This document shows positions 2,040 to 42,393 of a stretch of 47,697 nucleotides of DNA, one piece after another. Made by a program: the position numbers and the translations under genes. The DNA comes from an uncultured Mycobacterium sp. Lineage in GTDB: Bacteria; Actinomycetota; Actinomycetes; Mycobacteriales; Mycobacteriaceae. The notes under the pieces were generated by a model. That model had not been told where the DNA came from. It did no database searches and saw nothing but the letters and a program-made list of their open reading frames with translations. The stretch lies in the NCBI GenBank assembly GCA_964590745.1, contig CAZPZQ010000001.1, positions 1-47,697 of the forward strand, written 5' to 3'. Each line of letters begins with the position of its first letter. Within the stretch, counting starts at the first letter, position 1.

Positions 2040-2477
2040 TCAGCAGGTCACGTCGATGGTGAAGTCCGCGGTGGCCAACTCGCCGGGGTTGTCCGGGTCG
2101 GAACCCTGCGCGGTGCCGGTGATGTGGTAGGTGTCCGAGGCGAACGTCGCCTCAGCGTTGCCCGTCGCGGCGTTGGCAACGCCGGTGAAGCCGTCGAAAT
2201 TGTCGAAGCTGACCGACTGGGGCTTCGGCGTGTCGGGTTCAAGGTCGAGCATCGCGTGCACGTGGGCTGGTTCGGCGCCGATATTCACCGTCAACAACCA
2301 TTGAACCTGCGCGCAGGAGACATCGTGCGAGGTTCGGGCATTGCCGTTGATTGCGACCCGGGCCCTCTTCTGCACATTGCCCGACTGACCGCAACCCGAT
2401 GTGCCGGCCAGCACAGCACCGGCGACCAGTGCTGCGGCGACGCACCGGCGAGGCGGCGTCGAATTAGCTGAAATCAA
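2040..2477 (-). CDS. LpqH/19-kDa-family lipoprotein
   Basis: Hydrophobic signal plus lipobox-like GTSG-C; VSC, YHITGTAQG and FTIDVTC motifs of the family; start (TTG 2477) uncertain. Confidence 0.8.
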   Translation of the reverse strand: MISANSTPPRRCVAAALVAGAVLAGTSGCGQSGNVQKRARVAINGNARTSHDVSCAQVQWLLTVNIGAEPAHVHAMLDLEPDTPKPQSVSFDNFDGFTGVANAATGNAEATFASDTYHITGTAQGSDPDNPGELATADFTIDVTC

Positions 2478-3615
2478 TGATGCCCCTGATGATTTCACCG
2501 CTGTGCAAGTCCTGATAGGCGTCGTTGATGTCGTCGAGGCGATACCGCCTGGTGATCATTTCGTCGAGTTGCAGCTGTCCGCTCTGATACAGCAGTGCCA
2601 GCCTTGAAATGTCGGCCCTTGGGTTGCACGATCCGAAGACGGTGCCCACCAGGTTCTTGTTCATCAAGATGAAATCCTGCAGGTTGATCTTGATGGAATG
2701 GGTGGTTGGCGTGGTCATCCCAGTGAGCACGCAGGTTCCGCCCTTACGGGTCAGGGTCACGGCGGCGTGCACGTCGGCAGCGCCAATCAACGACGGTGAC
2801 ACCACCACGGCGTCGGCCATCACCCCGGAGGTGAGATCGCGGACCAGATCCACCGCGTCGGCAGCCGTTGCGACAGCGTGAGTAGCGCCAAACCGCAGTG
2901 CCGACTTCTGTTTGAACTCGACCGGGTCGACGGCGACGATCTGTGCGGCGCCATTGATCCGGGCGCCCTGGATGGCTCCGGTGCCGATACCGCCGGCGCC
3001 GATGACGACTGCCGTGTCGCCGCCGCGGATCCGGCCGCGGTGTGCCACCGAACCGTATCCGGTGGGCACCGCACACGACAGCAGTGCACTGGGGGCCAAC
3101 GGCAACCGCGGATCGATTTTGACCAGCGAGCTCGCTGCGACCACGGTGTGCTGTGCGAACGCACCGATCTTGGATAAGTGACCGAGCGGCTGTCCGTCTC
3201 TGGTGTGGTGACGAAACGTGCCGTCGGTGGGCATGCCCGGGGTCAGGGTTCCGATGCCGGCGTCGCAGAGGTACTCCATGCCCGTCGCGCACCAGCGGCA
3301 CCGCCCGCAGACCGCGACGAAGGACGCCACCACGTGGTCACCCGGCGCGAAATCAGTGACGCCGTCACCGATTTGCCGGACGATGCCGGAGCCCTCGTGA
3401 CCGCCGATGGTCGGGAACATGGTGGGCAGACCCAGCGACCGCAGCACCTCGTTGGGGGCCGCCATATCGCCGTTGCGGATGTGCTCGTCGGAATGGCACA
3501 GCCCGGCGGCGGCCATCTCGACCAGTACTTCGCCGGCGCGCGGCGGGTCCAGCTGGAATTCCTCTATCGACCACGGCTTGCCCACATCGTGCAGGACGGC
3601 CGCCCGGCTCTTCAC
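2464..3615 (-). CDS. Zn-dependent (NDMA-type, nicotinoprotein) alcohol dehydrogenase, mycofactocin-associated type
   Basis: MKSRAAVL start in GTGA overlap with the P450 stop; GLCHSDEH, GGHEGSG, CGRCRWC..C and GAGGIG motifs. Confidence 0.9.
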   Translation of the reverse strand: MKSRAAVLHDVGKPWSIEEFQLDPPRAGEVLVEMAAAGLCHSDEHIRNGDMAAPNEVLRSLGLPTMFPTIGGHEGSGIVRQIGDGVTDFAPGDHVVASFVAVCGRCRWCATGMEYLCDAGIGTLTPGMPTDGTFRHHTRDGQPLGHLSKIGAFAQHTVVAASSLVKIDPRLPLAPSALLSCAVPTGYGSVAHRGRIRGGDTAVVIGAGGIGTGAIQGARINGAAQIVAVDPVEFKQKSALRFGATHAVATAADAVDLVRDLTSGVMADAVVVSPSLIGAADVHAAVTLTRKGGTCVLTGMTTPTTHSIKINLQDFILMNKNLVGTVFGSCNPRADISRLALLYQSGQLQLDEMITRRYRLDDINDAYQDLHSGEIIRGIIDFS

Positions 3616-4838
3616 GACACCGGTGTGAACGTCACCGGCAATCGGTTGGGTGACCGGAAGGTCAGTCCGACGATGTCGGCGTCGCTGTCCGGGACCAGCG
3701 TCAGATCGGTGACCCGGTCCAACAGGCTCTCCAGCATGATCTGCGTTTCCAGCCTCGCCAGATGCATGCCCATACACATGTGTTCGCCGGCACCGAACGA
3801 CATGTGCGCCTTGTGCGGCCGAAGGATGTCGAACACGTCGGGATCGGTCCACCGGCTTTCGTCACGGTTGGCCGCTCCCATGCACAAGTCGACTTGCGCA
3901 CCCTTCGGGATTGTCTTCCCGCCTATCTCGACATCCTGCGTGGTGGTGCGCACCACCGTCGTCAGCGGTGTTTCGTATCGCAGACCTTCTTCAAACGCGA
4001 GGGGTATCAGCGATCGATCCTGGTAGAGCATGGCCAGCTGGTCTGGATGGGTGAGCAGGAGATGCAGCAGATTTCCCGACGAGCGGTAAGTCGTTTCCAG
4101 GCCGGCCAGCAGCAGCAGCCGCAAAAACGCGATGATCGCTTCGTCGGTCAGCTTCTCTCCGTCGATTTCAGCGCTGACCAGGTCGCCGATGATGTCGTTG
4201 GTCATCTTGCGGTGCCGTTGTTCGACCTGGTCGAGGAAGTAGTCGTGCAGTTCGACTGATGCTCGCAGCCCCGCCTCGATGTCGACCGGGATCGAGATCA
4301 GGTCGAACGACAGCCTCCGGAACATGTCCAGGTCTTCCATCGGCAGCCCGAGCAGGATGGCGGTGATCCGGGTCGGAAACTCCGACGTCACCGTCTTGAC
4401 CAGGTCAGCGGCGCCGTGGTCTTTGAACTCATCGACCAGCCCTTCACACACCGGTCTGATGACGGTCGGTTCCCAGTTCCGCAGCGCGGCGCCACGGAAG
4501 GCCTTCGCTACCAGGCTGCGGTGTTTGTGGTGTTCTCGGCCGCGCATCGCCAGGATGGTGTGGCCAATCACCAGGCCGATCGTCATGTCGTAGTTCTCTG
4601 TGGTGAACACCTCATCGTCGTTGCGGAACGCCCGGAACACATCCTCGTAGCGGAACAGGCTCCACTCGTCGTCCGGCAGAAGTTCCGGTGGTGTCTGCTC
4701 GTGCTTCGGCATCACACCGCCGTGCCAGACCGGCTCCGTGCGCCGCATGTGGTTGAAGAACGGGTACGGGCTGGTTTCACCGGTGTGGTCCAAGGTGATC
4801 GATCGGTCGTGCGGATCGGTGCTGATTGTCACCGGCAT
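3612..4838 (-). CDS. Cytochrome P450
   Basis: I-helix AGLETT, EGLR (ExxR), heme motif FGAGEHMCMG; ATG 4838 after a purine-rich RBS. Confidence 0.95.
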   Translation of the reverse strand: MPVTISTDPHDRSITLDHTGETSPYPFFNHMRRTEPVWHGGVMPKHEQTPPELLPDDEWSLFRYEDVFRAFRNDDEVFTTENYDMTIGLVIGHTILAMRGREHHKHRSLVAKAFRGAALRNWEPTVIRPVCEGLVDEFKDHGAADLVKTVTSEFPTRITAILLGLPMEDLDMFRRLSFDLISIPVDIEAGLRASVELHDYFLDQVEQRHRKMTNDIIGDLVSAEIDGEKLTDEAIIAFLRLLLLAGLETTYRSSGNLLHLLLTHPDQLAMLYQDRSLIPLAFEEGLRYETPLTTVVRTTTQDVEIGGKTIPKGAQVDLCMGAANRDESRWTDPDVFDILRPHKAHMSFGAGEHMCMGMHLARLETQIMLESLLDRVTDLTLVPDSDADIVGLTFRSPNRLPVTFTPVS

Positions 4839-4875
4839 GCCTCTCTCTGCAGCGGACTTGTCTGCGCGGAACCTC

Positions 4876-4903
4876 GCTATCATAATATAAATAGCAATAA
4901 AGC
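4876..4903. promoter_or_regulatory. Tandem 9-bp operator-like motif, copy 1
   Basis: g-CTATCATAA-TATAAATAG-CAATAAAG-c in the P450/Rieske ferredoxin divergent intergenic region. Confidence 0.7.
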
Positions 4904-4970: not shown

Positions 4971-5330
4971 ATGCCGATACGCCAGTTTGTCTGCGCACTC
5001 GACGAGTTGCCGCCGGGTTCGATGAAGCTGGTCGATGTCGGCAAGTTCGGCGTCGGTGTCTACAACGTGCGCGGCTCGTTGCATGCGATTGTCAACTACT
5101 GCTCTCATCAGGGCGCGCCGCTGTGTCTCGGCTCGGTCAACGGCACCACCGAGCCCGACCCGGAACAGCCGGATGGAGTACGCCTGGTGCGCGAAGGTCA
5201 GATCGTCCGATGCCCCTGGCACCAATGGGAGTTCGACATCACCACCGGGAAGAACGTCGCCGATCCGCAGCGCCGGGTGCGCACCTACGAAGTCGACGTC
5301 AGCGACGGAGAGGTCTACCTCACGGCATGA
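4971..5330 (+). CDS. Rieske [2Fe-2S] ferredoxin
   Basis: CSH...CPWH ligands, WEFDITTG; RBS GGAGG; ATGA coupling to next gene. Confidence 0.92.
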   Translation: MPIRQFVCALDELPPGSMKLVDVGKFGVGVYNVRGSLHAIVNYCSHQGAPLCLGSVNGTTEPDPEQPDGVRLVREGQIVRCPWHQWEFDITTGKNVADPQRRVRTYEVDVSDGEVYLTA

Positions 5331-6421
5331 GCAAACCAACTTCCGGCGGTCCAGTTATCGACGCCAACGTCCAACCGCATTTCCGCAATAACGCTGAAAT
5401 CCGGCACTACCTGCCGCCGGTGCACAAGCTCCGGGCGATACCGGACGTGGAGCAGCAGTGGTATCAGGCGCCGGGCGGTGACTACCGGCCGGATCTCTAT
5501 GGCGAGCACTACCCGGGCTCCGACCCGGAAACCGTCAGCCGGCACCTGTTCGGCGACTGGCACATCGACTACGCGATCCTCAACCCGTTGACCCGCGGTA
5601 ACATCGCCGACTATCTGCTCAACAGCCGGATTTGCGCCGCGGTCAACGACTGGCTGTTGGACCGGTGGCTGATACCGGATGCCACCAACCGGTTTCGTGG
5701 CACCATCCGGGTCAACCCCGAGGACCCCAAGGGTGCGGTCGCTGAAATCGAGCGGTTGGCTGGGCATCCGAAAATGGTCCAGGTCGGAGTGCCCATGCAG
5801 TCACGCGAACCGTACGGCAAGCCGATGTTCGAGCCGATCTGGGAGGCCGCGGAAGCCCACGGACTTCCGGTGGCGGTACACATCAACGGCGGCAATGGGA
5901 TTGACCACGCGCCCACCTTCGCCGGCCACGCTCACACCTACCCCGGATATGCGGCGTTCATGCCACTGAACTACTTCGTGCACTTGGCCACGCTGATCGT
6001 CGAGGGTGTTTTCGGGCGTCACCCCGGGCTGAAGGTCGTTTTCGCCGACGGTGGTTACGACATTCTCACGCCGCTGATGTGGCGGCTGGACACCTTCTGG
6101 CTATCGATGCGTGACCAGACTCCGTGGGTGGACCGGTATCCCAGTGAGTACCTGGCCGACCACGTCCGGTTCTGTTCGTCGTCGCTAGACGGGCCGACCG
6201 ACACCGGCCAGATTGCCCAGTGGATGGACTTCTCGAACAAGTCGGAACTGGTCATGTACGGTTCGAGCTATCCGCACTGGTCGACATCGCCACCGGGCGT
6301 AATGGCGGCGGGTCTGGACAGCCCGCAGCGGGATAAGTTCTTGTGGCGAAACGCCAGTAACTTGTATGGGCTCACCCAACCGACGGCAGCTCGCCCGATC
6401 GACGAAAGTAGCGTGTCATGA
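5327..6421 (+). CDS. Amidohydrolase_2-fold protein with degenerate metal site (AibH1-like partner subunit)
   Basis: IDANVQPH, VAVHING, FADGG, YGSSYPHW: family fold motifs with several ligands substituted. Confidence 0.85.
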   Translation: MSKPTSGGPVIDANVQPHFRNNAEIRHYLPPVHKLRAIPDVEQQWYQAPGGDYRPDLYGEHYPGSDPETVSRHLFGDWHIDYAILNPLTRGNIADYLLNSRICAAVNDWLLDRWLIPDATNRFRGTIRVNPEDPKGAVAEIERLAGHPKMVQVGVPMQSREPYGKPMFEPIWEAAEAHGLPVAVHINGGNGIDHAPTFAGHAHTYPGYAAFMPLNYFVHLATLIVEGVFGRHPGLKVVFADGGYDILTPLMWRLDTFWLSMRDQTPWVDRYPSEYLADHVRFCSSSLDGPTDTGQIAQWMDFSNKSELVMYGSSYPHWSTSPPGVMAAGLDSPQRDKFLWRNASNLYGLTQPTAARPIDESSVS

Positions 6422-7581
6422 CCGCTTCGGAACGGGCCGAGTCGCAGGTCCAAAGTGATGAGATCGCGGTGACCATCGTCGACACCGACGTGCACCCGAT
6501 GGTGGCGTCGCTGGATGTGTTGAAGTCTTACGCTCCGCCGGAATGGGTGGACAAGATCTTTCCGACCGGGCACGCGGTGACTCCGATACCACATTTCTAT
6601 GACACCCCGAATTCCTTTAAGACGTTTTCGCTTCGAACCGACGCCGTCCCGCCCGGCGGTGGATTCCCGGGAACCGACCCCGATTTCGCGGCCAAGCAAC
6701 TATTGCTTGACGCCGGAGTCAGCATCGCGCTGCTGGAACCGCTGTGCGACGCCCAGCTGCCGGAAGCCGAACACGTGCTGAAATCGACCTACAACGACTG
6801 GCTCGCGGACTTGTGGCTGGACAAGCACAACAGCCACGGTCGCTGGCGTGGGACCGTCAGTGTCAGTGCCCAGGCGCCTGAGCTGGCGGCGCGTGAAATC
6901 GAGCGCTGGGCGGGCCATCCGTACATGGCTGAGGTGCTGATGACACCGCAGACCCGTGGAATACCTTTCGGTAACCCACATTTCGATCCACTCTATGCCG
7001 CCGCGGCTCGCAACGGACTTCCGGTGGCCACGCATCTGATGGGCCAGACCCCGTTTGAGTTGGTCCCCATTTATCCGGTGGGGAATCCGGCGCACTGGCA
7101 TGATTTCTTCGCATCGTGGCCGCTACTGTTCGTATCGCACTTGATGAGCCTGGTATTCGACGGTGCATTCGACCGCCATCCAGACCTGCGGGTGGTGTTC
7201 GTCGAAGGCGGCTTTACCTGGGTGGCGCCGGTGATGTGGCGGATGGACCGAATCTGGGAGGCTCGCCGGGGCGATCTCCCACAGGTGCGACGGCGTCCGT
7301 CCGAATATGTGCGCGAGCACGTCCGGTTCACCACGCAGCCACTCGAGGAAATCAACGTCGCGGTGTATCGCGAGTACCTGGAGATGGCCGACCTGGGCAA
7401 CATCCTGATGTTCTCCACCGACTACCCGCACTGGAGCTACGACTCGCCCAGTTATGCGATCAACCGGTTCCCGCGTGACCAGCGGGAGCGGATCATGTAC
7501 GGCAACGCAACGGCCTTGTACCGGCTGCCGTCGAGGGTGAAGGCGCTGCCGGGGGAACGGTCAGCCGCCGATGTCGCTTGA
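6418..7581 (+). CDS. Amidohydrolase_2-fold protein, probable dinuclear oxygenase catalytic subunit (AibH2-like)
   Basis: VDTDVH, VATHL, FVEGG, FSTDYPHW ligands intact; ATGA-coupled to its paralog. Confidence 0.85.
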   Translation: MTASERAESQVQSDEIAVTIVDTDVHPMVASLDVLKSYAPPEWVDKIFPTGHAVTPIPHFYDTPNSFKTFSLRTDAVPPGGGFPGTDPDFAAKQLLLDAGVSIALLEPLCDAQLPEAEHVLKSTYNDWLADLWLDKHNSHGRWRGTVSVSAQAPELAAREIERWAGHPYMAEVLMTPQTRGIPFGNPHFDPLYAAAARNGLPVATHLMGQTPFELVPIYPVGNPAHWHDFFASWPLLFVSHLMSLVFDGAFDRHPDLRVVFVEGGFTWVAPVMWRMDRIWEARRGDLPQVRRRPSEYVREHVRFTTQPLEEINVAVYREYLEMADLGNILMFSTDYPHWSYDSPSYAINRFPRDQRERIMYGNATALYRLPSRVKALPGERSAADVA

Positions 7582-8008
7582 GCGTCGGGACGACCCGACG
7601 GCGGCACTGGTCGCTCTGGTGCGTGAGTACGACGAGAAATGGTCGACTCTCGATATTGCCGGGCTCGCCGACTTGTGGGAGTTGAAAAGTCCGCAGCCGG
7701 TGTATTTCGCCGATGAGTATGCGACGCCGTTGATCGGGTTCGATGAATTCGACCGGCACTGGGTCCGAGTTGGTGGCCGGCTCAAGAAGGCGTCGGTGTC
7801 GTCGGAGTTGCGGTACTGCGACATGCTTGCCGACGGCTTTGCTCGCTGCGTGGTACTGAGTAGGTGGCACCTCACCGGACATGAGTCCGACGTAGTGCAC
7901 ACCGGTGCCAGCTGGATCACCTGGCTGGTGGTAGTACGCGGCGACCGCTACCGCATCTGTCACCACATGGAAACACAGGTCTACTTGCCCGACGACGAAG
8001 CGCGGTAA
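7571..8008 (+). CDS. SnoaL/NTF2-like protein
   Basis: 145 aa; N-terminal helix ending WSTLDIAGLADLW, C-terminal beta strands ending YRICHHME. Confidence 0.7.
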   Translation: MSLERRDDPTAALVALVREYDEKWSTLDIAGLADLWELKSPQPVYFADEYATPLIGFDEFDRHWVRVGGRLKKASVSSELRYCDMLADGFARCVVLSRWHLTGHESDVVHTGASWITWLVVVRGDRYRICHHMETQVYLPDDEAR

Positions 8009-8027: not shown

Positions 8028-8723
8028 TCAGACCGGGTCCAGTCGGGCGATCAGCCAACTGCCGTCAACCTTCGACAACGACACCTGCACACTGCGTGCT
8101 GCCATCGCCGGCTCCGGCTGCTGTCTGCTGGTGGTGGTCTGGTCCACGAACACCAGCACCACCGCGGATTCGGGGTGCAGTTCTGCCACCGCGATGCCGA
8201 CCACTTCGGCGGTAGTGGTCAATCCCTTTTCTTTCGCCGCCGGAGCAACCACCTGTCGAGCGAAGTCCTCGAAATAAGACAGGAAGTCACCGGTCAGGTG
8301 TGACCTCGCGGTGGCCAGGTCGCTGTCGACCGTCTCCGGCGTGTAAGACAGCATCGCAACGGTGCCGTCGCGCGCCGCACTGGCCACCACGGCCGCCGCG
8401 CCGGCATTGGTCTGGTTGTCGGGCCGGTACCAGGAGACGTACAGCCAGGTGGTCAACGCGGCGGCGACCAGCACGAGAAGAACCAGCAGCGCCGGGGCAA
8501 GCTTCACCTCAGCGGTTTGCAGCCGGTGTCGGATGCCGGGCTTGTGCCGCGCGTCGTCGGCGGTGCCGATGCGCCGCTCCTCAGCATCGCTGCGCGCTGC
8601 ATCGTCGTCGGCGGTGCTGATGCGCCGCTCCTCAGCATCGCTGCGCGCTGCATCGTCGTCGGCGGTGCTGATGCGCCGCTCCTCAGCATCGCTGCGCGCT
8701 GCATCGTCGTCGGCGGTGGTCAT
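8028..8723 (-). CDS. Mce-associated membrane (Mam) protein with N-terminal 17-aa repeats
   Basis: Single TM helix; [29 protein letters not shown] and WLIARLDPV motifs. Confidence 0.88.
8552..8718 (-). repeat. MIRU-like 51-bp tandem repeat (~3.3 copies)
   Basis: Units start at 8568, 8619 and 8670 (+); minus strand reads ACCGCCGACGACGATGCAGCGCGCAGCGATGCTGAGGAGCGGCGCATCAGC, resembling the MIRU core GACGATGCAG...GCGATG..GAGGAGCGGCGC. Confidence 0.9.
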
Positions 8724-14389: not shown

Positions 14390-15583
14390 TTAAGCCGACA
14401 CCGGCTTAGCGACCTTCATCACCTCCATCATGTTGCCGCCCATGATCTTCTCGATGTCGGCTTGGTCAAATCCCTCGAGTTCGTCGATGAAGCTCAGCGG
14501 GTCGGCCAATCCCTCCGGGTGCGGCCAGTCGGAACCGAAGACCACTCGGTCAGCGCCCACCATCTGGACGATGTCGGCGAACCGGTCCTCCCAGAACGGG
14601 CTGATGTAGACGCAGCGCTTGAACGCCTCGACTGGGTCCTCGTTGAAGGCGCTGGGCATCTTCTTGTAGACGTTCTTCAATCCCTTGAACAGGTCAGGGA
14701 CCCAGTCGGCGCCGTTCTCGATCGACAGCACGCGCAGATCCGGGTTACGCGAAAACGCGCCATGGCAGACCAGCGCGCCCATCGCGTCGAAGATCGGTCG
14801 GTGGCCCATGGCCAGCATCCGAAACGCGGTGGGCCGGAACGGCAGGAACTCGTCACCCGGCTCCCATACGTTGCACATCTCGGCGTAGCCGGTGTCCGAG
14901 GCGTGCATCGTCACCGGGATGCCGGCTTTGACGCAGGCCTGCCAGAACGGGTCGAACTCCTCCAGCCCGAACGAGCGGCTGCCCCGGAAGCCGGGCACCG
15001 GGCCGGGCCGAACCAGCACGGTGCGGGCGCCCCGTTGCAGGCACCAGTCCAGTTCGTCGAGGGCCCGATCGACGATGGGCAGGGTGATTACCGGCGTGGC
15101 GAAGATGCGTTCTTGGTAGTTGAATGACCAGGTTTCGTGCATCCACTGGTTGAGCGCGTGGATGACGTCGTGAATCAGTTCCGGGTCATCTTTCATGTGC
15201 TCTTCGACCAGGCTGGCCAGGGTGGGGATCATCAGCGCGTAGTCGAGCCCCAACTCGTCCATCACCTCGAGCCTCGGCCCGGGCTCACGGAAGGCGGGGA
15301 TGGCCTTCATCGGTTCGCCCATCATCTCGCGGTAGCTCTTGCCGCCGCTGCCGTGCCGGAAGTACTCCTCCTGAGCACCCGGGCGGGCAACCACTTCGAA
15401 CGTTGGGTTGGGAATGTAGTTGCTGATCTGGCCTCGCACGACGATCTTGGTCCGACCGCGCACCTGCACGTAGTCGATAACGTGCTTGCGGTTGTCCGGC
15501 AGGAACTTGGTCAGTGCCTCCTGCGGTTCATACAGGTGGTTGTCGGCGTCGAACACCGGAAAAGGAAGTTCGCGGGACGGCAT
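14390..15583 (-). CDS. Amidohydrolase_2-fold protein, PtmU3-like ligand set
   Basis: FDADNH, TMHASD, SIENG, FGSDWPHPEG; RBS AGGAGG before ATG 15583. Confidence 0.88.
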   Translation of the reverse strand: MPSRELPFPVFDADNHLYEPQEALTKFLPDNRKHVIDYVQVRGRTKIVVRGQISNYIPNPTFEVVARPGAQEEYFRHGSGGKSYREMMGEPMKAIPAFREPGPRLEVMDELGLDYALMIPTLASLVEEHMKDDPELIHDVIHALNQWMHETWSFNYQERIFATPVITLPIVDRALDELDWCLQRGARTVLVRPGPVPGFRGSRSFGLEEFDPFWQACVKAGIPVTMHASDTGYAEMCNVWEPGDEFLPFRPTAFRMLAMGHRPIFDAMGALVCHGAFSRNPDLRVLSIENGADWVPDLFKGLKNVYKKMPSAFNEDPVEAFKRCVYISPFWEDRFADIVQMVGADRVVFGSDWPHPEGLADPLSFIDELEGFDQADIEKIMGGNMMEVMKVAKPVSA

Positions 15584-15608
15584 GATGGCCTCCTGAGCTG
15601 TATCGGAG

Positions 15609-15637
15609 AACAAGTGGTAACGACATTACCACTTGTT
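15609..15637. promoter_or_regulatory. Perfect 12-bp inverted repeat, probable TetR operator
   Basis: AACAAGTGGTAA-CGACA-TTACCACTTGTT; core GGTAAC-N3-ATTACC overlaps a minus-strand TAATGT -10. Confidence 0.65.
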
Positions 15638-15669: not shown

Positions 15670-16680
15670 CTATCGGGCGTCGCGGCCACGCACGACCGCG
15701 AAACTCACCGTGGCGGTCGCTGCCAGTTCATCCTGGCCGTTGCCGAATATGTCCACCTGCACGATGACCGAGCGTTGGCCGGCCCGCAGCACTTTGGGAA
15801 CCGCCTCGGCAGGGCCCCGGGTGATCGGGCGCAGGTATCGGACGACGAGGTCCGCGGTGGTCAGGCTGGCGCCAGGTGGAACGTGCTCCAGCGCCAAGCG
15901 CCCTCCGGCAACATCGGCGAGCGTGGCGACCAAACCGCCCTGCAGCGCGCCAGCGGTGTTGACCACCCGCGGACTCACCGGCATGGTCATGACGAACTCG
16001 GCGCTGCGCGAGGCAGTTTCGCGTAGTCCGAGCTGGGTAAATAGCTGGGCCAACGATGGCGCCGGCATCTCCCGGTCGCTATCTGCCCCGAGCGCCCGTA
16101 TGCAGAAGTCGTACAACTGGCCGGTGTCGATCGGGGTTCCGGTCAACTCGGCACCGAGCCAGTGCAACCGCAGCGCGCCCAACACCGTCTGCATGACGAT
16201 CGCCGCCGCGACAGCAACGTCTGCACCGGGCCGGAATACGCCCTCAGCGACCCCTCGGTCCACCAGCTCGCGCAGCAGCTGATGCAGCGGGGACAACACC
16301 CGGGCGTAGTCCCGGGGCCGGGTCTCGGCCAGTTGCTGGTTGTACAGACTCAGCGCCCGATTCAGGCCGTCCTGGATGCTGGATTCCGGTCGGGCGCTGA
16401 CCCGGTCGATGACCAACCTGAGCGCGGCGCCGGCGTGCAACCCATCGGTCTCGGCGCGCCAGCTCCGTGCTGACTGCGCCATCGTCTTTTCGACCAGCGC
16501 CAGCAACAAATCATCCTTACTGGAAAAATGCTGGTAAAAGGACCGTAGCGACGTCTTGGAGCGGGTAACCACCTCCTGCACGGTGAAGTCGGTGCGCCCG
16601 GTTTCGCCGAGGATGGCGATCGCGGTTTTGATAAAGCCCGCGGCGCGGGTGGCCGGGTCGGCCGTGTCATGCGTGGTCAT
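15670..16680 (-). CDS. TetR-family regulator fused to a PaaI-type hotdog thioesterase domain
   Basis: N-terminal HTH FTVQEVVTRSKTSLRSFYQHFSSKDDLL; C-terminal NTAGALQGGLVATLAD...VRYLRP...GQRSVIVQV. Confidence 0.88.
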   Translation of the reverse strand: MTTHDTADPATRAAGFIKTAIAILGETGRTDFTVQEVVTRSKTSLRSFYQHFSSKDDLLLALVEKTMAQSARSWRAETDGLHAGAALRLVIDRVSARPESSIQDGLNRALSLYNQQLAETRPRDYARVLSPLHQLLRELVDRGVAEGVFRPGADVAVAAAIVMQTVLGALRLHWLGAELTGTPIDTGQLYDFCIRALGADSDREMPAPSLAQLFTQLGLRETASRSAEFVMTMPVSPRVVNTAGALQGGLVATLADVAGGRLALEHVPPGASLTTADLVVRYLRPITRGPAEAVPKVLRAGQRSVIVQVDIFGNGQDELAATATVSFAVVRGRDAR

Positions 16681-26170: not shown

Positions 26171-26992
26171 TCACTGGGGGCGACTGTCCCGGGGGCGGGA
26201 CAGTGCCTGTGGCGACAATGCATAGATCCGCCGATCAGAGCGGTCGGAGAGCACGTGGGTCTGGGTATCGGAGACATGTCGGGCGGCGATGCGGCGGGCC
26301 CGTTCGACGTCGCCGGCCTCGATCATCTCGGTCAGCTTGAGGTGGGTGTTGAGCACCGCACGGCGTTGCGGCAGCGATGGATACGTGCCTTTCGCGGCAC
26401 TCTCGTCAGCCCACTGCTGTTCATGGCTGGTCCAGAGCGTTTCCAGGCTGCCGACCACCGCGATCATGGTGTGGTTTCCGCAGCCGTGCACGAGCAGATT
26501 ATGGAACTGGCGCCCGATTTCGGTGAATTGCCCACCGTCGTCCAGTTGGGCAGCCATCGCGTCGTTGATTCGGTTGAGTTCGGGCACCAATGTTTCGGCA
26601 CGGTCCGGCCGCTGAGCGGCCAGCGCCGCACAGACCGGTTCCAGCTCCCGTAGCGCCGCACCCAGGTCAGCCAGGCCGACGTACTCACTCTGCAGCAGCA
26701 GCCCCAGCATGTAGGCGGCGCTGGTCTTCGCCGGTGCATGCACGACGGCGCCACCGCGGTTACCTCGCCGCACAGACAGCAGGCCCTCGGTTTCCAGGAT
26801 GCGCAGCGCTTCTCGCAGCGACACCAGGCTAACGTTGAATTGCTCGACCAGCACCTCCTGGCGCGGCAGCAGATCACCGTCGGCGAGTTCGCCGTCGATG
26901 ATCTGACGGCGCAACTCATCTGCGACAATCTCGGCGATCCGGGGCGCCGACAGCCGACGTCGCGCTTCCGCGCCAATTCCCAGCGTGGTCAT
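26171..26992 (-). CDS. GntR/FadR-family regulator (FCD domain)
   Basis: LADGDLLP.QEVL..QFNVS..SLREALRILE.EGL...RG..GG wHTH; FH...GN...H...H FCD residues. Confidence 0.92.
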   Translation of the reverse strand: MTTLGIGAEARRRLSAPRIAEIVADELRRQIIDGELADGDLLPRQEVLVEQFNVSLVSLREALRILETEGLLSVRRGNRGGAVVHAPAKTSAAYMLGLLLQSEYVGLADLGAALRELEPVCAALAAQRPDRAETLVPELNRINDAMAAQLDDGGQFTEIGRQFHNLLVHGCGNHTMIAVVGSLETLWTSHEQQWADESAAKGTYPSLPQRRAVLNTHLKLTEMIEAGDVERARRIAARHVSDTQTHVLSDRSDRRIYALSPQALSRPRDSRPQ

Positions 26993-27059
26993 CAAAATCC
27001 CAGCAGCGAAGCGATGAGTTCGAGTGCACGGCCGCTGCGCCCGCAACTCGACTGGCTTA

Positions 27060-27087
27060 GCTATCTTAGCAGTAATGACATAATTGT
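27060..27087. promoter_or_regulatory. Tandem 9-bp operator-like motif, copy 4 (upstream of the gntR gene itself)
   Basis: g-CTATCTTAG-CAGTAATGA-CATAATTG-t. Confidence 0.55.
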
Positions 27088-27090
27088 CGG

Positions 27091-29487
27091 ATGCAGCGAA
27101 GCGACGTGCGACCGACACCGCTGGATGCGTTGCGCGTCGTCGAGATCAGCGATCGAATCGCCGGTGGTTACTGCGGCAAGCTGCTGGTCGACGCCGGTGC
27201 CGAGGTGTGCAAAATCGAACCACCGCAAGGGGATCCGCTACGGCGATACACGATGAGCGGCTCGTCGGTGCCCGATGCTCGGGCTGACCGGGGCGCCCCA
27301 CTGTTCGGTTATCTCAACTCCGGCAAGCGCAGTCTGGTGCTCTCACCGTCGGATGGGCGCTACCTCGCCGTCCTTGGTGCTGCCGACCTGATCGTGGTTA
27401 CCGCAACCCGGTCACAAGCGGCGGCTTTGGGTATCGATCCGCAGGCACTGTTGACCGACAATCCGCGAGCCGTTGTGGTGTCCATCTCCGACTTCGGCTG
27501 GACCGGGCCGTATGCCGAGCGGCCGGCCAGCGAATTCACCCTGCAGGCCCTTGCCGGCTTGACCGGGTTCCGTGGTGATCCCGCCGGGCCGCCCATCGCG
27601 ATCGGGGGAGAACTGGGTGAGTACATGGCCGGCGTGTGCGCGGCGTTTGGTGCGCTGGCGGTGCACCGCCGCGTGCGGCACCGCGGCGCTGGGGAACACC
27701 TGGACCTGTCCGTGCTCGAGGCGATGACGCTGATGCAGAGCTCCGAATGGCTGCACAGCCAACTGCTGGCCGTGCCGCCGGTCACCCGCACCGTGGAGGT
27801 ACCGTCGATCGAGCCGGCCAAGGACGGCTACGTCGGCATCACCATGGTCACCGGTCAGCAGTGGCTTGACTTCGCGGCGATGGTCGATTGCCCCGAGCTG
27901 ACCGAGAATCCGCAGCTACGATTTCAGATCGGACGCTGGGCATACCGAGATTTCATCCGCGACCGGATCGGCCCGTGGCTGGCCGAACGGACCGTCGAAG
28001 AAATCGTCGAGTTGGGGCAGCTGTTTCGGCTGCCGATCGCGGCGTTGGGCAACGGTTCGACGATCCGCGATATGGGGCATCTCAAAGACCGGGGCGTGTT
28101 CGTGCGCAACCCCGGCGGTTTCCACCAGCCTCGGGCGCCGTGGCTGATGTCGCACTGCCAGCCCGCGCCGCTGGCCGGCGCACCGCTGCTCGGCGAGGCC
28201 AACGGCGAACCGGCTTGGCGGCAACGAAAACCCACGGCCGACCCGGCGGACCACCGGCGGCTGCCGCTGGACGGTGTCCGCGTCATCGACCTGACCGCGT
28301 TCTGGGCCGGGCCGGCGGCCACCTACCTGCTGGCGGCGTTCGGCGCCGATGTGATCAAGGTGGAGTCGATTCAACGCCCCGACGGCATCCGCTACTCGGG
28401 TGGGATGCGCACCGACGTCGACGACTGGTGGGAGTACGGCTGGGTCTTCCACGCCATGAACACCAATAAGCGTTCGATCACCTTGGATTTGGGCTCCGAC
28501 GACGGGCGAACGCTGTTTTTGCGCCTGGTGGCCGGCGCCGACGTGGTGATCGAGAACTTCTCCCCGCGGGTGATGGACCACTTCGGGCTCACCGCCGAAC
28601 TGCTGCTGGCCCGAAACCAGCGCCTGGTCTTCGCCAGGATGCCGGCATTTGGCCTGGACGGCCCGTGGCGAGACCGGGTCGGGTTTGCCCCCACCATGGA
28701 ACAGCTCGCCGGTTTGGCCTGGGTGACCGGGCTACCCGACGGTGTCCCGGTCGCCCCGCGCGGAGCCTGCGACCCGCTGGCCGGTGTGCACGCCGCGTTC
28801 GCGGTGCTGGCGGCGCTGGATTTCGCCGAACGCACGGGTTTCGGCCAGCTTGTCGAACTGCCGATGATCGAATCGGTGCTCAATGCCACCGCCGTCCAGC
28901 CGCTGGAAGCCGAGGTGTTCGGGGTGACGCTGGGCCGTCGGGGCAACCGGGGTTACGGCCCGGCGGTGCAGAATCTCTATCGCTGCGCCGGCGACGACGA
29001 GTGGATCGCTCTCACCGTGGCCACCGACGAGCAGTGGCGGGCGCTGGTCGAGGTGATGGATCGTCCGACCTGGGCTGACGACGCAGCACTGGCCACAGCG
29101 GCCGGGCGGCGGGATCGCGCCGACGACATCGACGCCCGGCTGGCGGACTGGTTCGCCGGGCGGCAACTGGCCGCCACGGTGGAGTTGCTGGCAAGCGCCG
29201 GCGTGCCGGCCGCGGCGGTGGTGTCGCCGTCGCTGGTCACGGAGAACCCGCAACTACGGGAGCGCGGGTTTTTCGAGCCGCTGGACCACCCGCGAACCGG
29301 CGCCGGGCTGTATCCCCGTCCGCCGTTCGCCCCACTGCGCGGGCAGCACCGCTGGCTGTCGCGGCCGCCGCCCACCCTGGGCGAACACAACGACGAGGTG
29401 CTGCGCGAGGCCGCCGGGCTCGACGACGCAGACCTCGCGCGGTTGGCGACCGAGCAAGTGATCGGCACCCGTCCCGCCGGAGCGTGA
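27091..29487 (+). CDS. Double-domain family III CoA transferase (fused CaiB/BaiF tandem)
   Basis: Two repeats: LDALRVVE..GAEVCKIE..NSGKRS and [23 protein letters not shown]; start may be GTG 27106. Confidence 0.92.
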   Translation: MQRSDVRPTPLDALRVVEISDRIAGGYCGKLLVDAGAEVCKIEPPQGDPLRRYTMSGSSVPDARADRGAPLFGYLNSGKRSLVLSPSDGRYLAVLGAADLIVVTATRSQAAALGIDPQALLTDNPRAVVVSISDFGWTGPYAERPASEFTLQALAGLTGFRGDPAGPPIAIGGELGEYMAGVCAAFGALAVHRRVRHRGAGEHLDLSVLEAMTLMQSSEWLHSQLLAVPPVTRTVEVPSIEPAKDGYVGITMVTGQQWLDFAAMVDCPELTENPQLRFQIGRWAYRDFIRDRIGPWLAERTVEEIVELGQLFRLPIAALGNGSTIRDMGHLKDRGVFVRNPGGFHQPRAPWLMSHCQPAPLAGAPLLGEANGEPAWRQRKPTADPADHRRLPLDGVRVIDLTAFWAGPAATYLLAAFGADVIKVESIQRPDGIRYSGGMRTDVDDWWEYGWVFHAMNTNKRSITLDLGSDDGRTLFLRLVAGADVVIENFSPRVMDHFGLTAELLLARNQRLVFARMPAFGLDGPWRDRVGFAPTMEQLAGLAWVTGLPDGVPVAPRGACDPLAGVHAAFAVLAALDFAERTGFGQLVELPMIESVLNATAVQPLEAEVFGVTLGRRGNRGYGPAVQNLYRCAGDDEWIALTVATDEQWRALVEVMDRPTWADDAALATAAGRRDRADDIDARLADWFAGRQLAATVELLASAGVPAAAVVSPSLVTENPQLRERGFFEPLDHPRTGAGLYPRPPFAPLRGQHRWLSRPPPTLGEHNDEVLREAAGLDDADLARLATEQVIGTRPAGA

Positions 29488-38846: not shown

Positions 38847-38880
38847 GCGGCACCGCCTTGCGCAGGGTGCAGATAACTTC

Positions 38881-38910
38881 GCTATTGACGCTAACATAGC
38901 AAAGAATGAC
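38881..38910. promoter_or_regulatory. Tandem 9-bp operator-like motif, copy 6
   Basis: GCTATTGACG-CTAACATAG-CAAAGAATG; contains GCTAT-N10-ATAGC and shares TTGACGCTAAC with copy 7. Confidence 0.65.
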
Positions 38911-38961: not shown

Positions 38962-39744
38962 TTGGGCGACGAACTTCTGGTCACCGCGGACGGCGCAGTG
39001 CGCACCGTGACGCTGAATCGCCCCCAGGCCAAGAACGTCATTGACGCACCATTGCACGCCCAGCTGCTCGATGTCTGGCACAGCCTGGACCGCGATGTCG
39101 ACGCGCGCTGCGTGATTCTCACCGGCGCCGGGGAGACATTCAGCGGGGGCGGAGATTTCGGGTTTCTCAAAGCCCAGCATCAGTCGATTCAGCTGCGGTA
39201 TGCGGTTTCCCAACAGGCCGGCGCCATCCTGGGCGCGATGATCAACTTCCGGCTGCCGGTGGTGGCTGCGATCAATGGGCCGGCGGTTGGGCTGGGCGCG
39301 TCGCTGGCGCTGTGTTGCGACCTGGTGTTGATGTCTGACCGCAGCTATCTGTGCGATCCGCACGTCTCGATCGGGCTGACCGCTGCCGACGGCGGTGCGC
39401 TGCTGTGGCCGTACATGATGAGCATGATCCGCGCCAAGGAATACATCTACACCGGCACGCGCATCCCCGCGGCAGACGCGGTCGACCTCGGCCTGGCAAA
39501 CCGGGTGGTGCCGGCGGACACACTGATGGACGAGGCCCGGGCGCTGGCGGCCAAGCTCGCGGCCCAGCCGGCCCGGGCGCTGCAGACCACTAAACGGGCG
39601 TTCTCCAAGCACATCGCCCAGGCGGCGATCGCCATCGTCGACTACGGCTTGGCCGCCGAAGCCCTGGAACTGGGCGCCGACGAACACATCGACAAAGTCC
39701 GCGAATTCCTTGGCCCAGACAAATACGACGCGATCGGCCGGTGA
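38962..39744 (+). CDS. Crotonase/enoyl-CoA hydratase superfamily protein (His/Asp type)
   Basis: TLNRP..KN, FSGGGD, PVVAAINGPAVGLG, DPHVSIGLTAADGG; RBS GAGGAG before TTG. Confidence 0.9.
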   Translation: MGDELLVTADGAVRTVTLNRPQAKNVIDAPLHAQLLDVWHSLDRDVDARCVILTGAGETFSGGGDFGFLKAQHQSIQLRYAVSQQAGAILGAMINFRLPVVAAINGPAVGLGASLALCCDLVLMSDRSYLCDPHVSIGLTAADGGALLWPYMMSMIRAKEYIYTGTRIPAADAVDLGLANRVVPADTLMDEARALAAKLAAQPARALQTTKRAFSKHIAQAAIAIVDYGLAAEALELGADEHIDKVREFLGPDKYDAIGR

Positions 39745-39745
39745 G

Positions 39746-41101
39746 GTGCCAGCGGATTGGCGTCGCTACCCGTTCCGGCTGGTGCCCGACCGGCTGGAGT
39801 TCCCGGCCGCCGAGGGCGCCCATCCCGACCAGGAGTCCGATACCTGGTTTCTGGCCGGCCAACTCACCACCGCGGCCGGCGATCGGTCGTTTGCCTTTTT
39901 GACCATTGTCAACAAGAACCGGCCCGGCGGGTCGATGGTCGCCGATTTTTATACGCTGGCGCTGTTCGAGCTGGACACCGGCGACTACGGCAGCTACACC
40001 GACTACGACATGCCGCCAGCCAATCGCCACCGTGCTGAGCCGAAACTGTCCGCCGCCGCAGGGCATCTCGACATCCGCTACCGCAGCAGTGCCGGCATAG
40101 CGGTGTGGACCGCCTGCCGCGACGGCGACGGACGTCTGCTGCCGTACACCTACCGCACCGATCTGGTCGGCTGCGATTCCGCGGACCGGGCAATGCGGCT
40201 GGAACTCGATGTGGCGCCGACGCGCGCGCCGGTACCGCTGGGCGCGTCGACCCACGACGGCCGGATTGCCTGTTTCGGACAAGACGACACTTACTCGTAT
40301 TTTCAGAGCGGGATGGCGATGACCGGGACGCTGCGCTGGGGCGACATCCATGAGCAGGTAGCCGGCGCCGCCGGGCACGTCGACCGGCAATGGTTTCCCA
40401 AATACGCCGGCGGGGGCGGAACCGGGGGTGATCCGCGGGCTCGCTCACACGAGTGGTGCACCATCAACCTGAACAACGGCGTCGACTTAAGCGTCTGGCG
40501 CCAGTTCGACCGCACCAGCGGCAATGCACTGCGCCCATTCTCCGGAGTGACCGTCAGTTATCCGGGTCCGACCGCACCGCCCGAGTTCACCGACGACGTG
40601 ACGGTTCAGGTGCACAGTTATGTCCGATGGCCGGACTCGGTGCGTCCGCTGGTCCCGCCGCTCGCCCCGGTCCGCTACCTGCCGGATCGACACCGGATTG
40701 CCTCGGCCGCATTAGAACTGGACGTTACCGGCGAGCCGATGGTTGCCGCGCCGGCGCATGCCCTGCCGATCGAGTACATGGAGGGGCCGTACCGCTACCG
40801 CGGGACCCTGCGCGGCGAGCCGGTGCAGGGTTTCGGGTTCTACGAACGCTCGCTGGCGCTCTACCGAGACTGGGAGTTGATCGACGTATTGGACGTCGCA
40901 GTAGCCAGCCTCCGGCCCGGCGTCGAGCGGTTGGCGGCATCGGTGCACCGGATTCGGTCATTGTTGACGGCCGGCGATCGGCGCGCGGCGCTCAATGCGC
41001 TGCGGACCGAGGTGCGGCCAACCGTCGACACCGGGTCGGTAGCCACCGTGACCGAGGTGCTTGACGACCTTATCAATGCCGTACTGCGCGATCTGGGGTG
41101 A
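39746..41101 (+). CDS. Lipocalin-like double beta-barrel protein (AttH/CrtC-like)
   Basis: FPAAEGAHPD..DTWF..G, TYSY, G.L.W...V.G..GHVDRQW, HEW..INL, Y.EGP....G...G.GFYE pattern. Confidence 0.72.
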   Translation: MPADWRRYPFRLVPDRLEFPAAEGAHPDQESDTWFLAGQLTTAAGDRSFAFLTIVNKNRPGGSMVADFYTLALFELDTGDYGSYTDYDMPPANRHRAEPKLSAAAGHLDIRYRSSAGIAVWTACRDGDGRLLPYTYRTDLVGCDSADRAMRLELDVAPTRAPVPLGASTHDGRIACFGQDDTYSYFQSGMAMTGTLRWGDIHEQVAGAAGHVDRQWFPKYAGGGGTGGDPRARSHEWCTINLNNGVDLSVWRQFDRTSGNALRPFSGVTVSYPGPTAPPEFTDDVTVQVHSYVRWPDSVRPLVPPLAPVRYLPDRHRIASAALELDVTGEPMVAAPAHALPIEYMEGPYRYRGTLRGEPVQGFGFYERSLALYRDWELIDVLDVAVASLRPGVERLAASVHRIRSLLTAGDRRAALNALRTEVRPTVDTGSVATVTEVLDDLINAVLRDLG

Positions 41102-42236: not shown

Positions 42237-42277
42237 GTCGTCAATTACAGCAGACTCGGACCGGCGAGATCCGCCAG

Positions 42278-42310
42278 TTGACGCTAACTTTATAAACTTT
42301 ATAATCACAA
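42278..42310 (+). promoter_or_regulatory. Near-consensus SigA promoter with 9-bp operator-like motif, copy 7
   Basis: TTGACG(42278)-N16-TATAAT(42300); g-CTAACTTTA-TAAACTTTA-TAATC fills the spacer. Confidence 0.72.
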
Positions 42311-42393
42311 GTATTCAACGGGTGGCGGCGGATCCGCGCTGGCTGCGGCGGCGCGAATCCGCATCCGCAGGCAACGACCGGAAGGTGCAGCCG

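What the first reader, a model, noticed from the sequence alone, without database searches (positions are those of the whole stretch)
4971..8008. Rieske ferredoxin + degenerate/intact amidohydrolase pair: AibG/AibH1/AibH2-like dinuclear monooxygenase
Seen: four overlapping genes. The first TIM barrel has lost ligands (DxH to NxQ, E to D, D to S in SSYPH); the second keeps DTDVH/H/E/TDYPH. A hydrolase needs no ferredoxin. Known: Rhodococcus AibH1H2 is an amidohydrolase-fold heteromeric Mn/Fe C-H hydroxylase working with a Rieske protein. Inference: a mycobacterial member with a new substrate and an additional NTF2-like partner.
Basis: partly seen in the sequence, partly recalled or inferred. 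Interest (0 to 1): 0.8.

Follow-up and report, generated by a model that had tools for sequence, protein, structure and literature searches.

The report
Oxygenase with metal-free partner subunit
Two neighbouring "amidohydrolase" genes and a small iron-sulfur protein gene, common in mycobacteria, likely encode an oxygen-inserting two-metal enzyme whose partner subunit has lost most of its metal-binding residues; the working subunit lacks one residue of the published family motif, so this branch would be missed by the current census.

Summary
Observation confirmed: four overlapping genes, Rieske, A (NxQ/H/D/S-YPH), B (DxH/H/E/DYPH) and C. Both barrels match solved amidohydrolase-related dinuclear oxygenases (AROs) far better than decarboxylases. 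Rieske-A-B is intact in 80 of 80 loci, and A orthologues occur in 76 of 200 genus genomes.

Three corrections. (1) A is not AibH1: AibH1 keeps five ligands and a metal, A keeps two, and the tree rejects A+AibH1-like as one clade (p-AU 0.002). (2) B is not fully canonical: DYPHW-S replaces DxPHx[D/E], as in 93 of 99 aligned relatives, so it fails the published ARO motif. (3) NTF2-fold C is accessory (35 of 80 loci).

Best reading (0.72): a Rieske-fed, probably Mn/Fe, heteromeric monooxygenase for an unknown hydrophobic substrate; B catalytic, A a metal-free scaffold. The sister paralogue cluster carries an NADH-flavin reductase in 4 of 4 loci. Main risk: B binds one metal, as AibH1 does. Verdict: new variant of a known kind. 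The scan found this reading before on other DNA (e1-5260053).

The parts
4971..5330 (+). Small Rieske [2Fe-2S] ferredoxin (119 aa), CxH-x34-CPWH; likely electron donor to B
   Evidence: PF00355 E 9e-17; present in 80 of 80 loci; 34-residue spacer and CPWH in all 83 close copies counted, 31-34 in Rieskes beside canonical AROs
5327..6421 (+). Subunit A: ligand-depleted pseudo-ARO TIM barrel (N14, Q16, H185, D241, S314, H317); likely metal-free scaffold
   Evidence: PF04909; best PDB hits are AROs; 0 of 108 family rows keep the first Asp; dN/dS 0.107; modelled heterodimer with B
6418..7581 (+). Subunit B: six-ligand ARO-like TIM barrel (D24, H26, H206, E263, D335, H338) with Ser340 in place of the motif acid and a conserved lid Asp62; likely catalytic
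   Evidence: PDB and fold hits to 8SM7, SfbO, AibH2; six ligands in 95 of 99 family rows, DxPHx[S/T] in 93, DxPHx[D/E] in 4
7571..8008 (+). Gene C: NTF2/SnoaL-fold protein (145 aa), accessory
   Evidence: AlphaFold2 pLDDT 88.7; Foldseek best hit 3D9R ketosteroid-isomerase-like, TMq 0.77; 35 of 80 loci; dN/dS 0.30
4874..4897 (.). Conserved inverted repeat TCGCTAT-N10-ATAGCAA in the divergent P450/Rieske intergenic region; candidate operator
   Evidence: Core GCTAT-N10-ATAGC in 76 of 80 loci; two exact copies in the window, 0.01 expected
3612..4838 (-). Cytochrome P450, divergently transcribed conserved neighbour
   Evidence: PF00067; 79 of 80 loci
2464..3615 (-). Zn alcohol dehydrogenase of the TIGR03989 (NDMA-dependent) subfamily, downstream of the P450
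   Evidence: TIGR03989 484 bits, cut-off 440; 78 of 80 loci
38879..38902 (.). Second copy of the candidate operator, between the divergent aldehyde dehydrogenase and enoyl-CoA hydratase genes
   Evidence: a similar second copy in G814

Best explanation
A and B are predicted to form a heteromeric oxygenase in which B likely holds a two-metal (probably Mn/Fe) centre and A, which has lost four of six metal ligands, likely acts as a metal-free scaffold, while the co-encoded Rieske protein would deliver electrons so that O2 is activated to hydroxylate an unknown, likely hydrophobic substrate. Shown: gene order and conservation, ligand patterns, ARO-like fold of B, purifying selection on A, separate origin from AibH1H2. 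Inferred: dinuclear occupancy, O2 chemistry, A-B binding, a reductase borrowed from elsewhere in the genome, and that lid Asp62 takes over the second-shell role of the missing acid at 340. The substrate is guessed to be a cyclic lipid/terpenoid-type compound or its acyl-CoA, from the neighbours and from F231/W234 replacing SfbO's sulfate-binding R232/R235.
For: B's best PDB hits are AROs: 8SM7 E 3e-70, 8SM8 1e-55, SfbO 9e-54, AibH2 6e-48, against LigW 5e-14; fold TMq 0.83/0.81/0.79 against 0.63 for LigW and 0.68 for ACMSD. All six first-shell ligands are in 95 of 99 B relatives. B meets the published Mn-type criteria: V25, E107 (my mapping of gamma2), W339, plus aromatic Y341 for Rieske docking (PMC13154177). 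A small adjacent Rieske gene is the published marker of AROs (PMC10811679). The paralogous cluster with the same A and B signatures has a NuoF-like FMN/4Fe-4S NADH oxidoreductase and a ferredoxin-like ORF in 4 of 4 loci examined. AibH2 D342A still binds a full metal complement (PMC10401708). A-B model: score 0.95, best control 0.00; the mark was reached by 116 of 157 solved and 2 of 215 mismatched pairs; runs agree in at least 95% of contacts, partner pLDDT at least 92; B residues 63-64 and 340 touch A. Like complexes are solved, so this shows likeness, not binding. Asymmetry: the xxPW Trp (A W267) is kept in 39 of 41 pseudo-subunits, 7 of 7 AibH1-like and 48 of 51 other AROs, but in only 3 of 33 B-clade and 0 of 7 AibH2-like proteins. 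The Lys that pairs in trans with the motif Asp in AibH1H2 (PMC12141560) maps to A T256; it is Lys in 0 of 14 close A relatives and 16 of 27 distant ones.
Against: B fails the defining DxPHx[D/E] motif. Hibi et al. argue that this acid is needed for a binuclear site and note that mononuclear AibH1 keeps the His but lacks the acid, which is B's pattern. D342A also lowers AibH2 activity. No reductase was found among the 29 window ORFs scanned. The Ser340/Asp62 and Thr256 changes each arose about once on the tree, so their co-occurrence is not independent evidence; lid Asp also occurs in 2 of 16 Asp-retaining relatives, and the Lys is in only 21 of 51 other AROs. W267 is not in the modelled dimer interface, and the intact partner of a distant pseudo-subunit keeps both the Trp and the motif Asp (L116, L117). 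A P450 sits next to the operon in 79 of 80 loci and could use the Rieske protein. No substrate, metal or activity data exist.
Confidence: 0.72

Rival explanations
1. B binds only one metal, as AibH1 does, because it lacks the terminal acid. The A-B complex is then a mononuclear enzyme: either a Rieske-fed mononuclear-iron oxygenase or a non-redox hydratase/decarboxylase.
For: AibH1 has all six positions but no terminal acid and is mononuclear. AibH1-like proteins have His at that position in 5 of 7.
Against: AibH2 D342A binds all its metals. B keeps aromatic gamma4/gamma5 (W339, Y341), whereas AibH1 has K-H-H there. B shows the Trp loss typical of catalytic partners. If B were structural, neither subunit would have a catalytic dinuclear site, yet the Rieske gene is kept in 80 of 80 loci.
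Confidence: 0.14
2. The Rieske protein serves the divergent P450 (or the ring-hydroxylating oxygenases further along the window), and A-B is a non-redox hydrolase or lyase acting downstream.
For: P450 adjacent in 79 of 80 loci, sharing a candidate operator. No other ferredoxin was seen among the window ORFs scanned. One of four paralogue loci also has an adjacent P450 (L123).
Against: The Rieske gene is translationally coupled to A, not to the P450. The same Rieske type sits beside ARO pairs where no P450 was found among the ORFs scanned in 17-18 kb (L120, L122, L124, L125). DxH is reported absent from characterised non-redox PF04909 enzymes.
Confidence: 0.07
3. A is not just a scaffold: it keeps a rebuilt site (H185, D241, H317 plus conserved lid D40/E42) that binds a metal or a ligand and has its own catalytic or regulatory role, or it supplies the missing acid to B in trans (D263).
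For: In 108 A-family rows D40 is kept in 103, E42 in 105 and D/E263 in 106. D241 is kept in 100. A 263-265 lie in the modelled interface.
Against: H185 and H317 are each replaced in 25 of 108 rows, and 9 rows keep none of the six ligands. Position 314 varies freely even among close orthologues.
Confidence: 0.07

Closest known systems
AibH1H2-AibG-AibF, 2-aminoisobutyrate monooxygenase of Rhodococcus wratislaviensis (PDB 6M1W, 6M2I, 8FUL-8FUO; PMC7782822, PMC10401708)
   Same: Two tandem PF04909 genes plus a small Rieske gene; one catalytic-type and one non-catalytic subunit; B has AibH2's six ligands; the same Trp asymmetry.
   Different: AibH1 keeps five ligands and a metal needed for solubility, A keeps two. 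A is not in the AibH1-like clade. B lacks D342. No aibF-like reductase and no amino-acid catabolic genes in the window. Gene order is Rieske-A-B.
Low-potential homomeric AROs: SfbO (8SM6), D3EI84 (8SM7), B6JH23 and W7L2Y2 (8SM8, 8SM9) (PMC10811679, PMC13154177)
   Same: Closest solved sequences and folds to B (36% identity and TMq 0.83 for 8SM7); Rieske neighbour; Mn-type gamma residues.
   Different: They are homomers with DxPH[W/F]D. B has DYPHWS, lid Asp62 where SfbO has sulfate-binding N67, F231/W234 where SfbO has R232/R235, and a pseudo-subunit partner.
High-potential diiron AROs PtmU3 and DitZ
   Same: Same fold and first shell; they act on terpenoid substrates, which fits the lipid-catabolic neighbourhood.
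   Different: Distant (PtmU3 E 2e-13, DitZ 9e-07); hydrophilic gamma1; Rieske neighbours largely absent. Two other window genes (14390-15613, 42139-43683) fit this class better.
LigW / ACMSD / dihydroxybenzoate decarboxylases
   Same: PF04909 TIM barrel, dimer with a residue donated by the neighbouring subunit (title of 4IFK).
   Different: E-values 30-56 orders weaker, TMq 0.60-0.68, rmsd 4-7.6 A; different N-terminal motifs; no Rieske partner reported.

Membership tests
ARO superfamily (Liu et al. 2024, 2026) | PF04909 TIM barrel close to solved AROs | tested here: met
ARO superfamily (Liu et al. 2024, 2026) | N-terminal D-x-H, middle His and bridging Glu | tested here: met
   B: D24-V-H26, H206, E263. 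Not met in A.
ARO superfamily (Liu et al. 2024, 2026) | C-terminal D-x-P-H-x-[D/E] motif | tested here: not met
   B: D335-Y-P-H338-W-S340; Ser in 78 of 78 close orthologues; S/T in 93 and D/E in 4 of 99 relatives
ARO superfamily (Liu et al. 2024, 2026) | Redox-active dinuclear cofactor and O2-dependent chemistry | not testable with these tools
   needs ICP, EPR, UV/vis and assay
Low-potential (Mn/Fe) AROs | gamma1 hydrophobic, gamma2 hydrophilic, gamma4 aromatic | tested here: met
   V25, E107, W339; V-E-W in 59 and V-Q-W in 15 of 99 rows. The paper gives no residue number for gamma2; it was mapped from the SfbO alignment.
Low-potential (Mn/Fe) AROs | Adjacent small Rieske ferredoxin and aromatic gamma5 | tested here: met
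   80 of 80 loci; Y341, Y/F in 97 of 101 rows
AibH1H2-type heteromer | Non-catalytic subunit keeps a mononuclear D,H,H,E,D site | tested here: not met
   A keeps 2 of 6 ligands; at most 3 in 108 rows
AibH1H2-type heteromer | A orthologous to AibH1 | tested here: not met
   AU test rejects A+AibH1-like as one clade, p 0.00175; AibH1 was represented by proxy P0375 (E 1e-150 to AibH1)
AibH1H2-type heteromer | The two barrels form one complex | tested here: inconclusive
   model score 0.95 against best control 0.00, but like complexes are solved; dimer only, tetramer not modelled
AibH1H2-type heteromer | Operon-encoded flavin reductase (AibF) and Aib catabolic genes | tested here: not met
   none among 29 window ORFs scanned; a motif screen of 80 loci found none; candidate reductases lie on other contigs
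LigW/ACMSD-type decarboxylases | Sequence and fold cluster with mononuclear decarboxylases | tested here: not met

The most novel reading that the evidence does not exclude
This is a second, independent invention of a heteromeric dinuclear oxygenase. An ARO gene duplicated; one copy became a fully metal-free pseudoenzyme that shapes its partner's metal loop, and in this branch the catalytic copy moved the motif-defining acid from the C-terminal loop (Ser340) to the lid (Asp62). The branch is common in mycobacteria, with at least two paralogous systems, is invisible to the 17,000-sequence motif census, and performs an unknown Mn/Fe C-H oxidation in lipid catabolism.
Probability: 0.5. Interest if true: 0.68.

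Novelty: new variant of a known kind. Interest (0 to 1): 0.52.

Why it matters
AROs are a recent enzyme class (2021-2026) with few known substrates. The role of the non-catalytic subunit is stated as open, and in AibH1H2 it cannot be separated from metal binding because AibH1 ligand mutants are insoluble. A naturally ligand-less partner makes that question testable. B is also a natural test of two conflicting claims about the motif acid: needed for the second metal (Hibi) or only for full activity (Powell). If B is dinuclear, the published ARO motif undercounts the family and misses a system found in 76 of 200 Mycobacterium genomes sampled. The general idea that Rieske-linked 'amidohydrolases' are oxygenases is already in print, which caps the surprise.

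Tried and rejected
Pseudogene decay of A: rejected by dN/dS 0.107 and open frames in the 80 loci. Decarboxylase clustering: rejected. C as an obligate subunit: rejected by 35 of 80; no complex with C was modelled. A degenerate-codon search for an AibH2 motif in 401 family genomes found none, so real AibH1/AibH2 are not in my tree and proxies were used. A metagenome scan with a distant pseudo-subunit (P0255) returned only two loci, both AibH1/H2-like pairs, so it gave no context for that subunit. The Atlas gave no result for C. The promoter scan was at chance level (1 found, 0.8 expected). P450 comparison with PDB gave no close relative that would name the substrate (best E 2e-59). SfbO 'Y280', named in PMC10811679 as sulfate-binding, could not be matched to the printed chain numbering, so it was not mapped. 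Paper searches found no description of this mycobacterial cluster, of a ligand-less ARO partner, or of a Ser/Thr motif variant; subscription papers are mostly not in that library, and supplement figures (sequence logos, networks) could not be seen.
Full report
Observation. The window holds four overlapping genes on the + strand: a 119-aa Rieske protein (4971-5330), barrel A (5327-6421), barrel B (6418-7581) and a 145-aa gene C (7571-8008). Pfam calls the first PF00355 and both barrels PF04909; C has no family. A and B are 33% identical. At the six positions that bind metal in AibH2 (D25, H27, H211, E265, D337, H340), B has D24, H26, H206, E263, D335, H338 and A has N14, Q16, H185, D241, S314, H317.

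It is conserved. A GTDB scan found 310 stretches related to A, of which the best 80 were returned. Rieske, A and B are in order in 80 of 80, the divergent P450 in 79, the alcohol dehydrogenase in 78, the first acyl-CoA dehydrogenase in 73, and C in only 35 (matches of at least 45% identity). A orthologues (E at most 1e-150) are in 76 of 200 sampled genomes of the genus. dN/dS is 0.107 for A (81 sequences), 0.087 for B (78), 0.14 for the Rieske (81) and 0.30 for C (35), so A is maintained as a protein. One relative (L015) has an internally deleted B.

Closest solved proteins. For both barrels the top eight PDB sequences are AROs: 8SM7, SfbO 8SM6, 8SM8, 8SM9 and the AibH1H2 chains. Decarboxylases come far behind (B: 3e-70 to 4e-38 against LigW 5e-14). 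An AlphaFold2 model of B (pLDDT 91) superposes on 8SM7 (TMq 0.83, 2.2 A), SfbO (0.81) and AibH1H2 (0.79) better than on PtmU3 (0.71), ACMSD (0.68) or LigW (0.63).

What the papers say. PMC10811679 (I read parts 1-2 of 3, covering the main text, and searched its supplement) defines AROs and finds 3307 PF04909 proteins next to small Rieske genes. PMC13154177 (parts 1-6 of 9, the main text, plus supplement part 2 of 4 and a term search) defines the family by DxH and DxPHx[D/E], counts about 17,000 members with the C-terminal motif alone, and predicts Mn/Fe use from gamma1, gamma2 and gamma4, with aromatic gamma5 docking the Rieske protein. PMC7782822 (parts 1-3 of 6) shows that AibH1H2, AibG and AibF are all required, that AibH1 binds one metal through five ligands, and argues that the acid at AibH2 D342 is important for a binuclear site. 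PMC10401708 (passages) shows Mn/Fe dependence, that D342A keeps all metals but loses activity, and that AibH1 ligand mutants are insoluble. PMC12141560 (passages) notes that AibH2 D342 bonds AibH1 K282. Supplement figures could not be seen.

A is not AibH1. In an alignment of A, 99 of the 120 listed homologues (fragments and one near-duplicate dropped) and 8 paralogue copies, none keeps the first Asp; 9 keep none, 13 one, 73 two and 13 three of the six ligands. A search of 50%-identity representatives (best 150 listed; only full-length ones used) and a 139-row tree place A in a clade of 41 ligand-depleted proteins, 0 of which have the first Asp. In a 54-row IQ-TREE (LG+G4, quick mode) this clade (support 100) and the B clade (91) lie together on one side of a 99-supported branch, while AibH1-like and AibH2-like proteins group together elsewhere (96); holding A with the AibH1-like rows is rejected (p-AU 0.00175). 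Limits: AibH1 and AibH2 were represented by proxies (P0375, E 1e-150 to AibH1; P0378, best hit AibH2 at 3e-74), the rows were picked after seeing the first tree, and the root is at the midpoint. The simplest reading is a separate duplication.

B departs from the published motif. B reads D335-Y-P-H338-W-S340-Y-D. Ser340 is invariant in 78 close orthologues. Among B plus 98 of its 119 listed homologues, 95 have all six ligands, 93 read DxPHx[S/T] and 4 read DxPHx[D/E]. B therefore cannot be filed under the motif definition, though it works like an ARO on every other test. Two linked changes suggest compensation. Lid Asp62, which aligns with SfbO's sulfate-binding N67, is present in 88 of 94 S/T rows and 0 of 5 others, though also in 2 of 16 more distant Asp-retaining relatives. 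The AibH1 Lys that bonds the motif Asp maps, by my count on the printed alignment, to A Thr256; it is Lys in 0 of 14 close A relatives, 16 of 27 distant pseudo-subunits, 6 of 7 AibH1-like and 21 of 51 other proteins. Each change happened about once, so this is suggestive only.

Evidence for a heteromer. The A-B model scored 0.95 against a best control of 0.00; that mark was reached by 116 of 157 solved and 2 of 215 mismatched pairs; runs agreed in at least 95% of contacts and partner pLDDT was at least 92. AibH1H2 and homomeric AROs are solved, so the pass may be from likeness. B residues 63-64 and 340 are in the interface. Independently, the Trp of the xxPW motif (A W267, invariant in 108 rows) is kept in 39 of 41 pseudo-subunits, 7 of 7 AibH1-like and 48 of 51 other AROs, but in 3 of 33 B-clade and 0 of 7 AibH2-like proteins: two lineages show the same division of labour. 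Against this, W267 is not in the modelled dimer interface, and in L116/L117 the intact partner of a distant pseudo-subunit keeps both the Trp and the motif Asp.

Electron supply. The Rieske protein has the long spacer and CPWH seen beside canonical AROs. No reductase was found among 29 window ORFs that I selected or by a motif screen of the 80 loci. The genome (79.7% complete) has two PF14759 and six PF00175 matches on other contigs. A paralogous cluster, about 50% identical in A and 43% in B, has the same signatures (A2: DASVH, D, SSYPHW; B2: DSDVH, SDYPHWTFD) and a Rieske gene. In 4 of 4 such loci examined over 18 kb, a NuoF-like FMN/4Fe-4S NADH oxidoreductase and a small ferredoxin-like ORF lie just downstream on the same strand. 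Among the ORFs scanned, two of these four had no P450, one had it adjacent and one about 7 kb away. This is the best support that the Ser/Thr branch is redox-active. The paralogous cluster was not found in the window's own incomplete genome.

Pathway. Neighbours are a P450, TIGR03989 and TIGR03971 dehydrogenases, acyl-CoA dehydrogenases, CoA transferases, acyl-CoA ligases, a KshA-like Rieske oxygenase, MaoC-type dehydratases, an aldehyde dehydrogenase and an enoyl-CoA hydratase. An inverted repeat TCGCTAT-N10-ATAGCAA lies in the P450/Rieske intergenic region and again at 38879 (2 found, 0.01 expected). These are the only two exact core matches in the assembly, and the core is in 76 of 80 loci. 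This suggests one regulated catabolic unit. With F231/W234 in place of SfbO's R232/R235, a hydrophobic substrate is likely; its identity is not determined. C has an NTF2 fold, weak SnoaL matches in a few members, and is accessory.

Mechanism and verdict. Most likely, NAD(P)H passes electrons through a shared reductase to the Rieske protein, which docks at B's W339/Y341 loop, reduces a Mn/Fe or Fe/Fe pair, and allows O2 activation and C-H hydroxylation, with A bracing that loop (0.72; all chemical steps inferred from the cited ARO work). The main rival is a mononuclear B (0.14). The class is published, and earlier notes of this scan reached the same general reading on other genomes. What I found in no paper searched is the ligand-less partner clade, its separate origin, and the motif-breaking catalytic subunit. 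New variant of a known kind; interest 0.52.

Noticed in passing
L006:10683-11648 and 72 other loci; absent from the window between 8008 and 8028: An HSL-family alpha/beta hydrolase gene follows B or C in 73 of 80 relatives. Its nucleophile elbow reads MGRDAG (70 segments), with Asp where Ser is expected (expectation recalled): an Asp-nucleophile enzyme or a second pseudoenzyme. No close copy was found in the window's genome (best 37%).
   Followed up: partly
L120:5216-10658, L121:8087-13900, L122:4450-10393, L123:3900-10421: Paralogous cluster pseudo-ARO, ARO, Rieske, alpha/beta hydrolase, stand-alone NuoF-like NADH oxidoreductase, small ferredoxin-like ORF (4 of 4), followed by a ChsH2-OB/thiolase fusion in three. 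A NuoF-like protein as oxygenase reductase is unusual.
   Followed up: partly
window 14390-15613 (-) and 42139-43683 (+): Two more PF04909 genes carry the full ARO motif (DADNH ... DWPHPE; DDH ... ECDYPHSD) with hydrophilic gamma1, i.e. predicted diiron AROs; the first is closest to 4DZI (E 3e-88). The cluster may hold three ARO systems.
   Followed up: partly
L116, L117 (L124:7109-9724): A third, rarer mycobacterial type (2 of 150 genomes): canonical ARO (DYPHWD), Rieske, then a distant pseudo-subunit, beside TPP enzyme, aldehyde dehydrogenase and SDR genes.
   Followed up: partly
window 4874-4897 and 38879-38902: Candidate operator TCGCTAT-N10-ATAGCAA; the regulator is unknown (TetR-thioesterase fusion at 15670-16680 and GntR at 26171-27118 are candidates).
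   Followed up: partly
L015:9059-9620: In the Mycobacterium innocens record, B has a large internal deletion and no ADH match was found, while A is intact: a decaying copy of the cluster.
   Followed up: partly
window about 8560-8720 (gene 8028-8723, -): The N-terminus of this membrane protein has four near-identical copies of a 17-residue unit ([17 protein letters not shown]), not seen in the orthologues printed.
   Followed up: no
window 39710-41101 (+): 463-aa ORF with no Pfam or NCBIfam match at the thresholds used, inside the catabolic cluster.
   Followed up: no
L031:6664-8001: About 1.3 kb separates the Rieske gene from A in this relative, probably an insertion.
   Followed up: no
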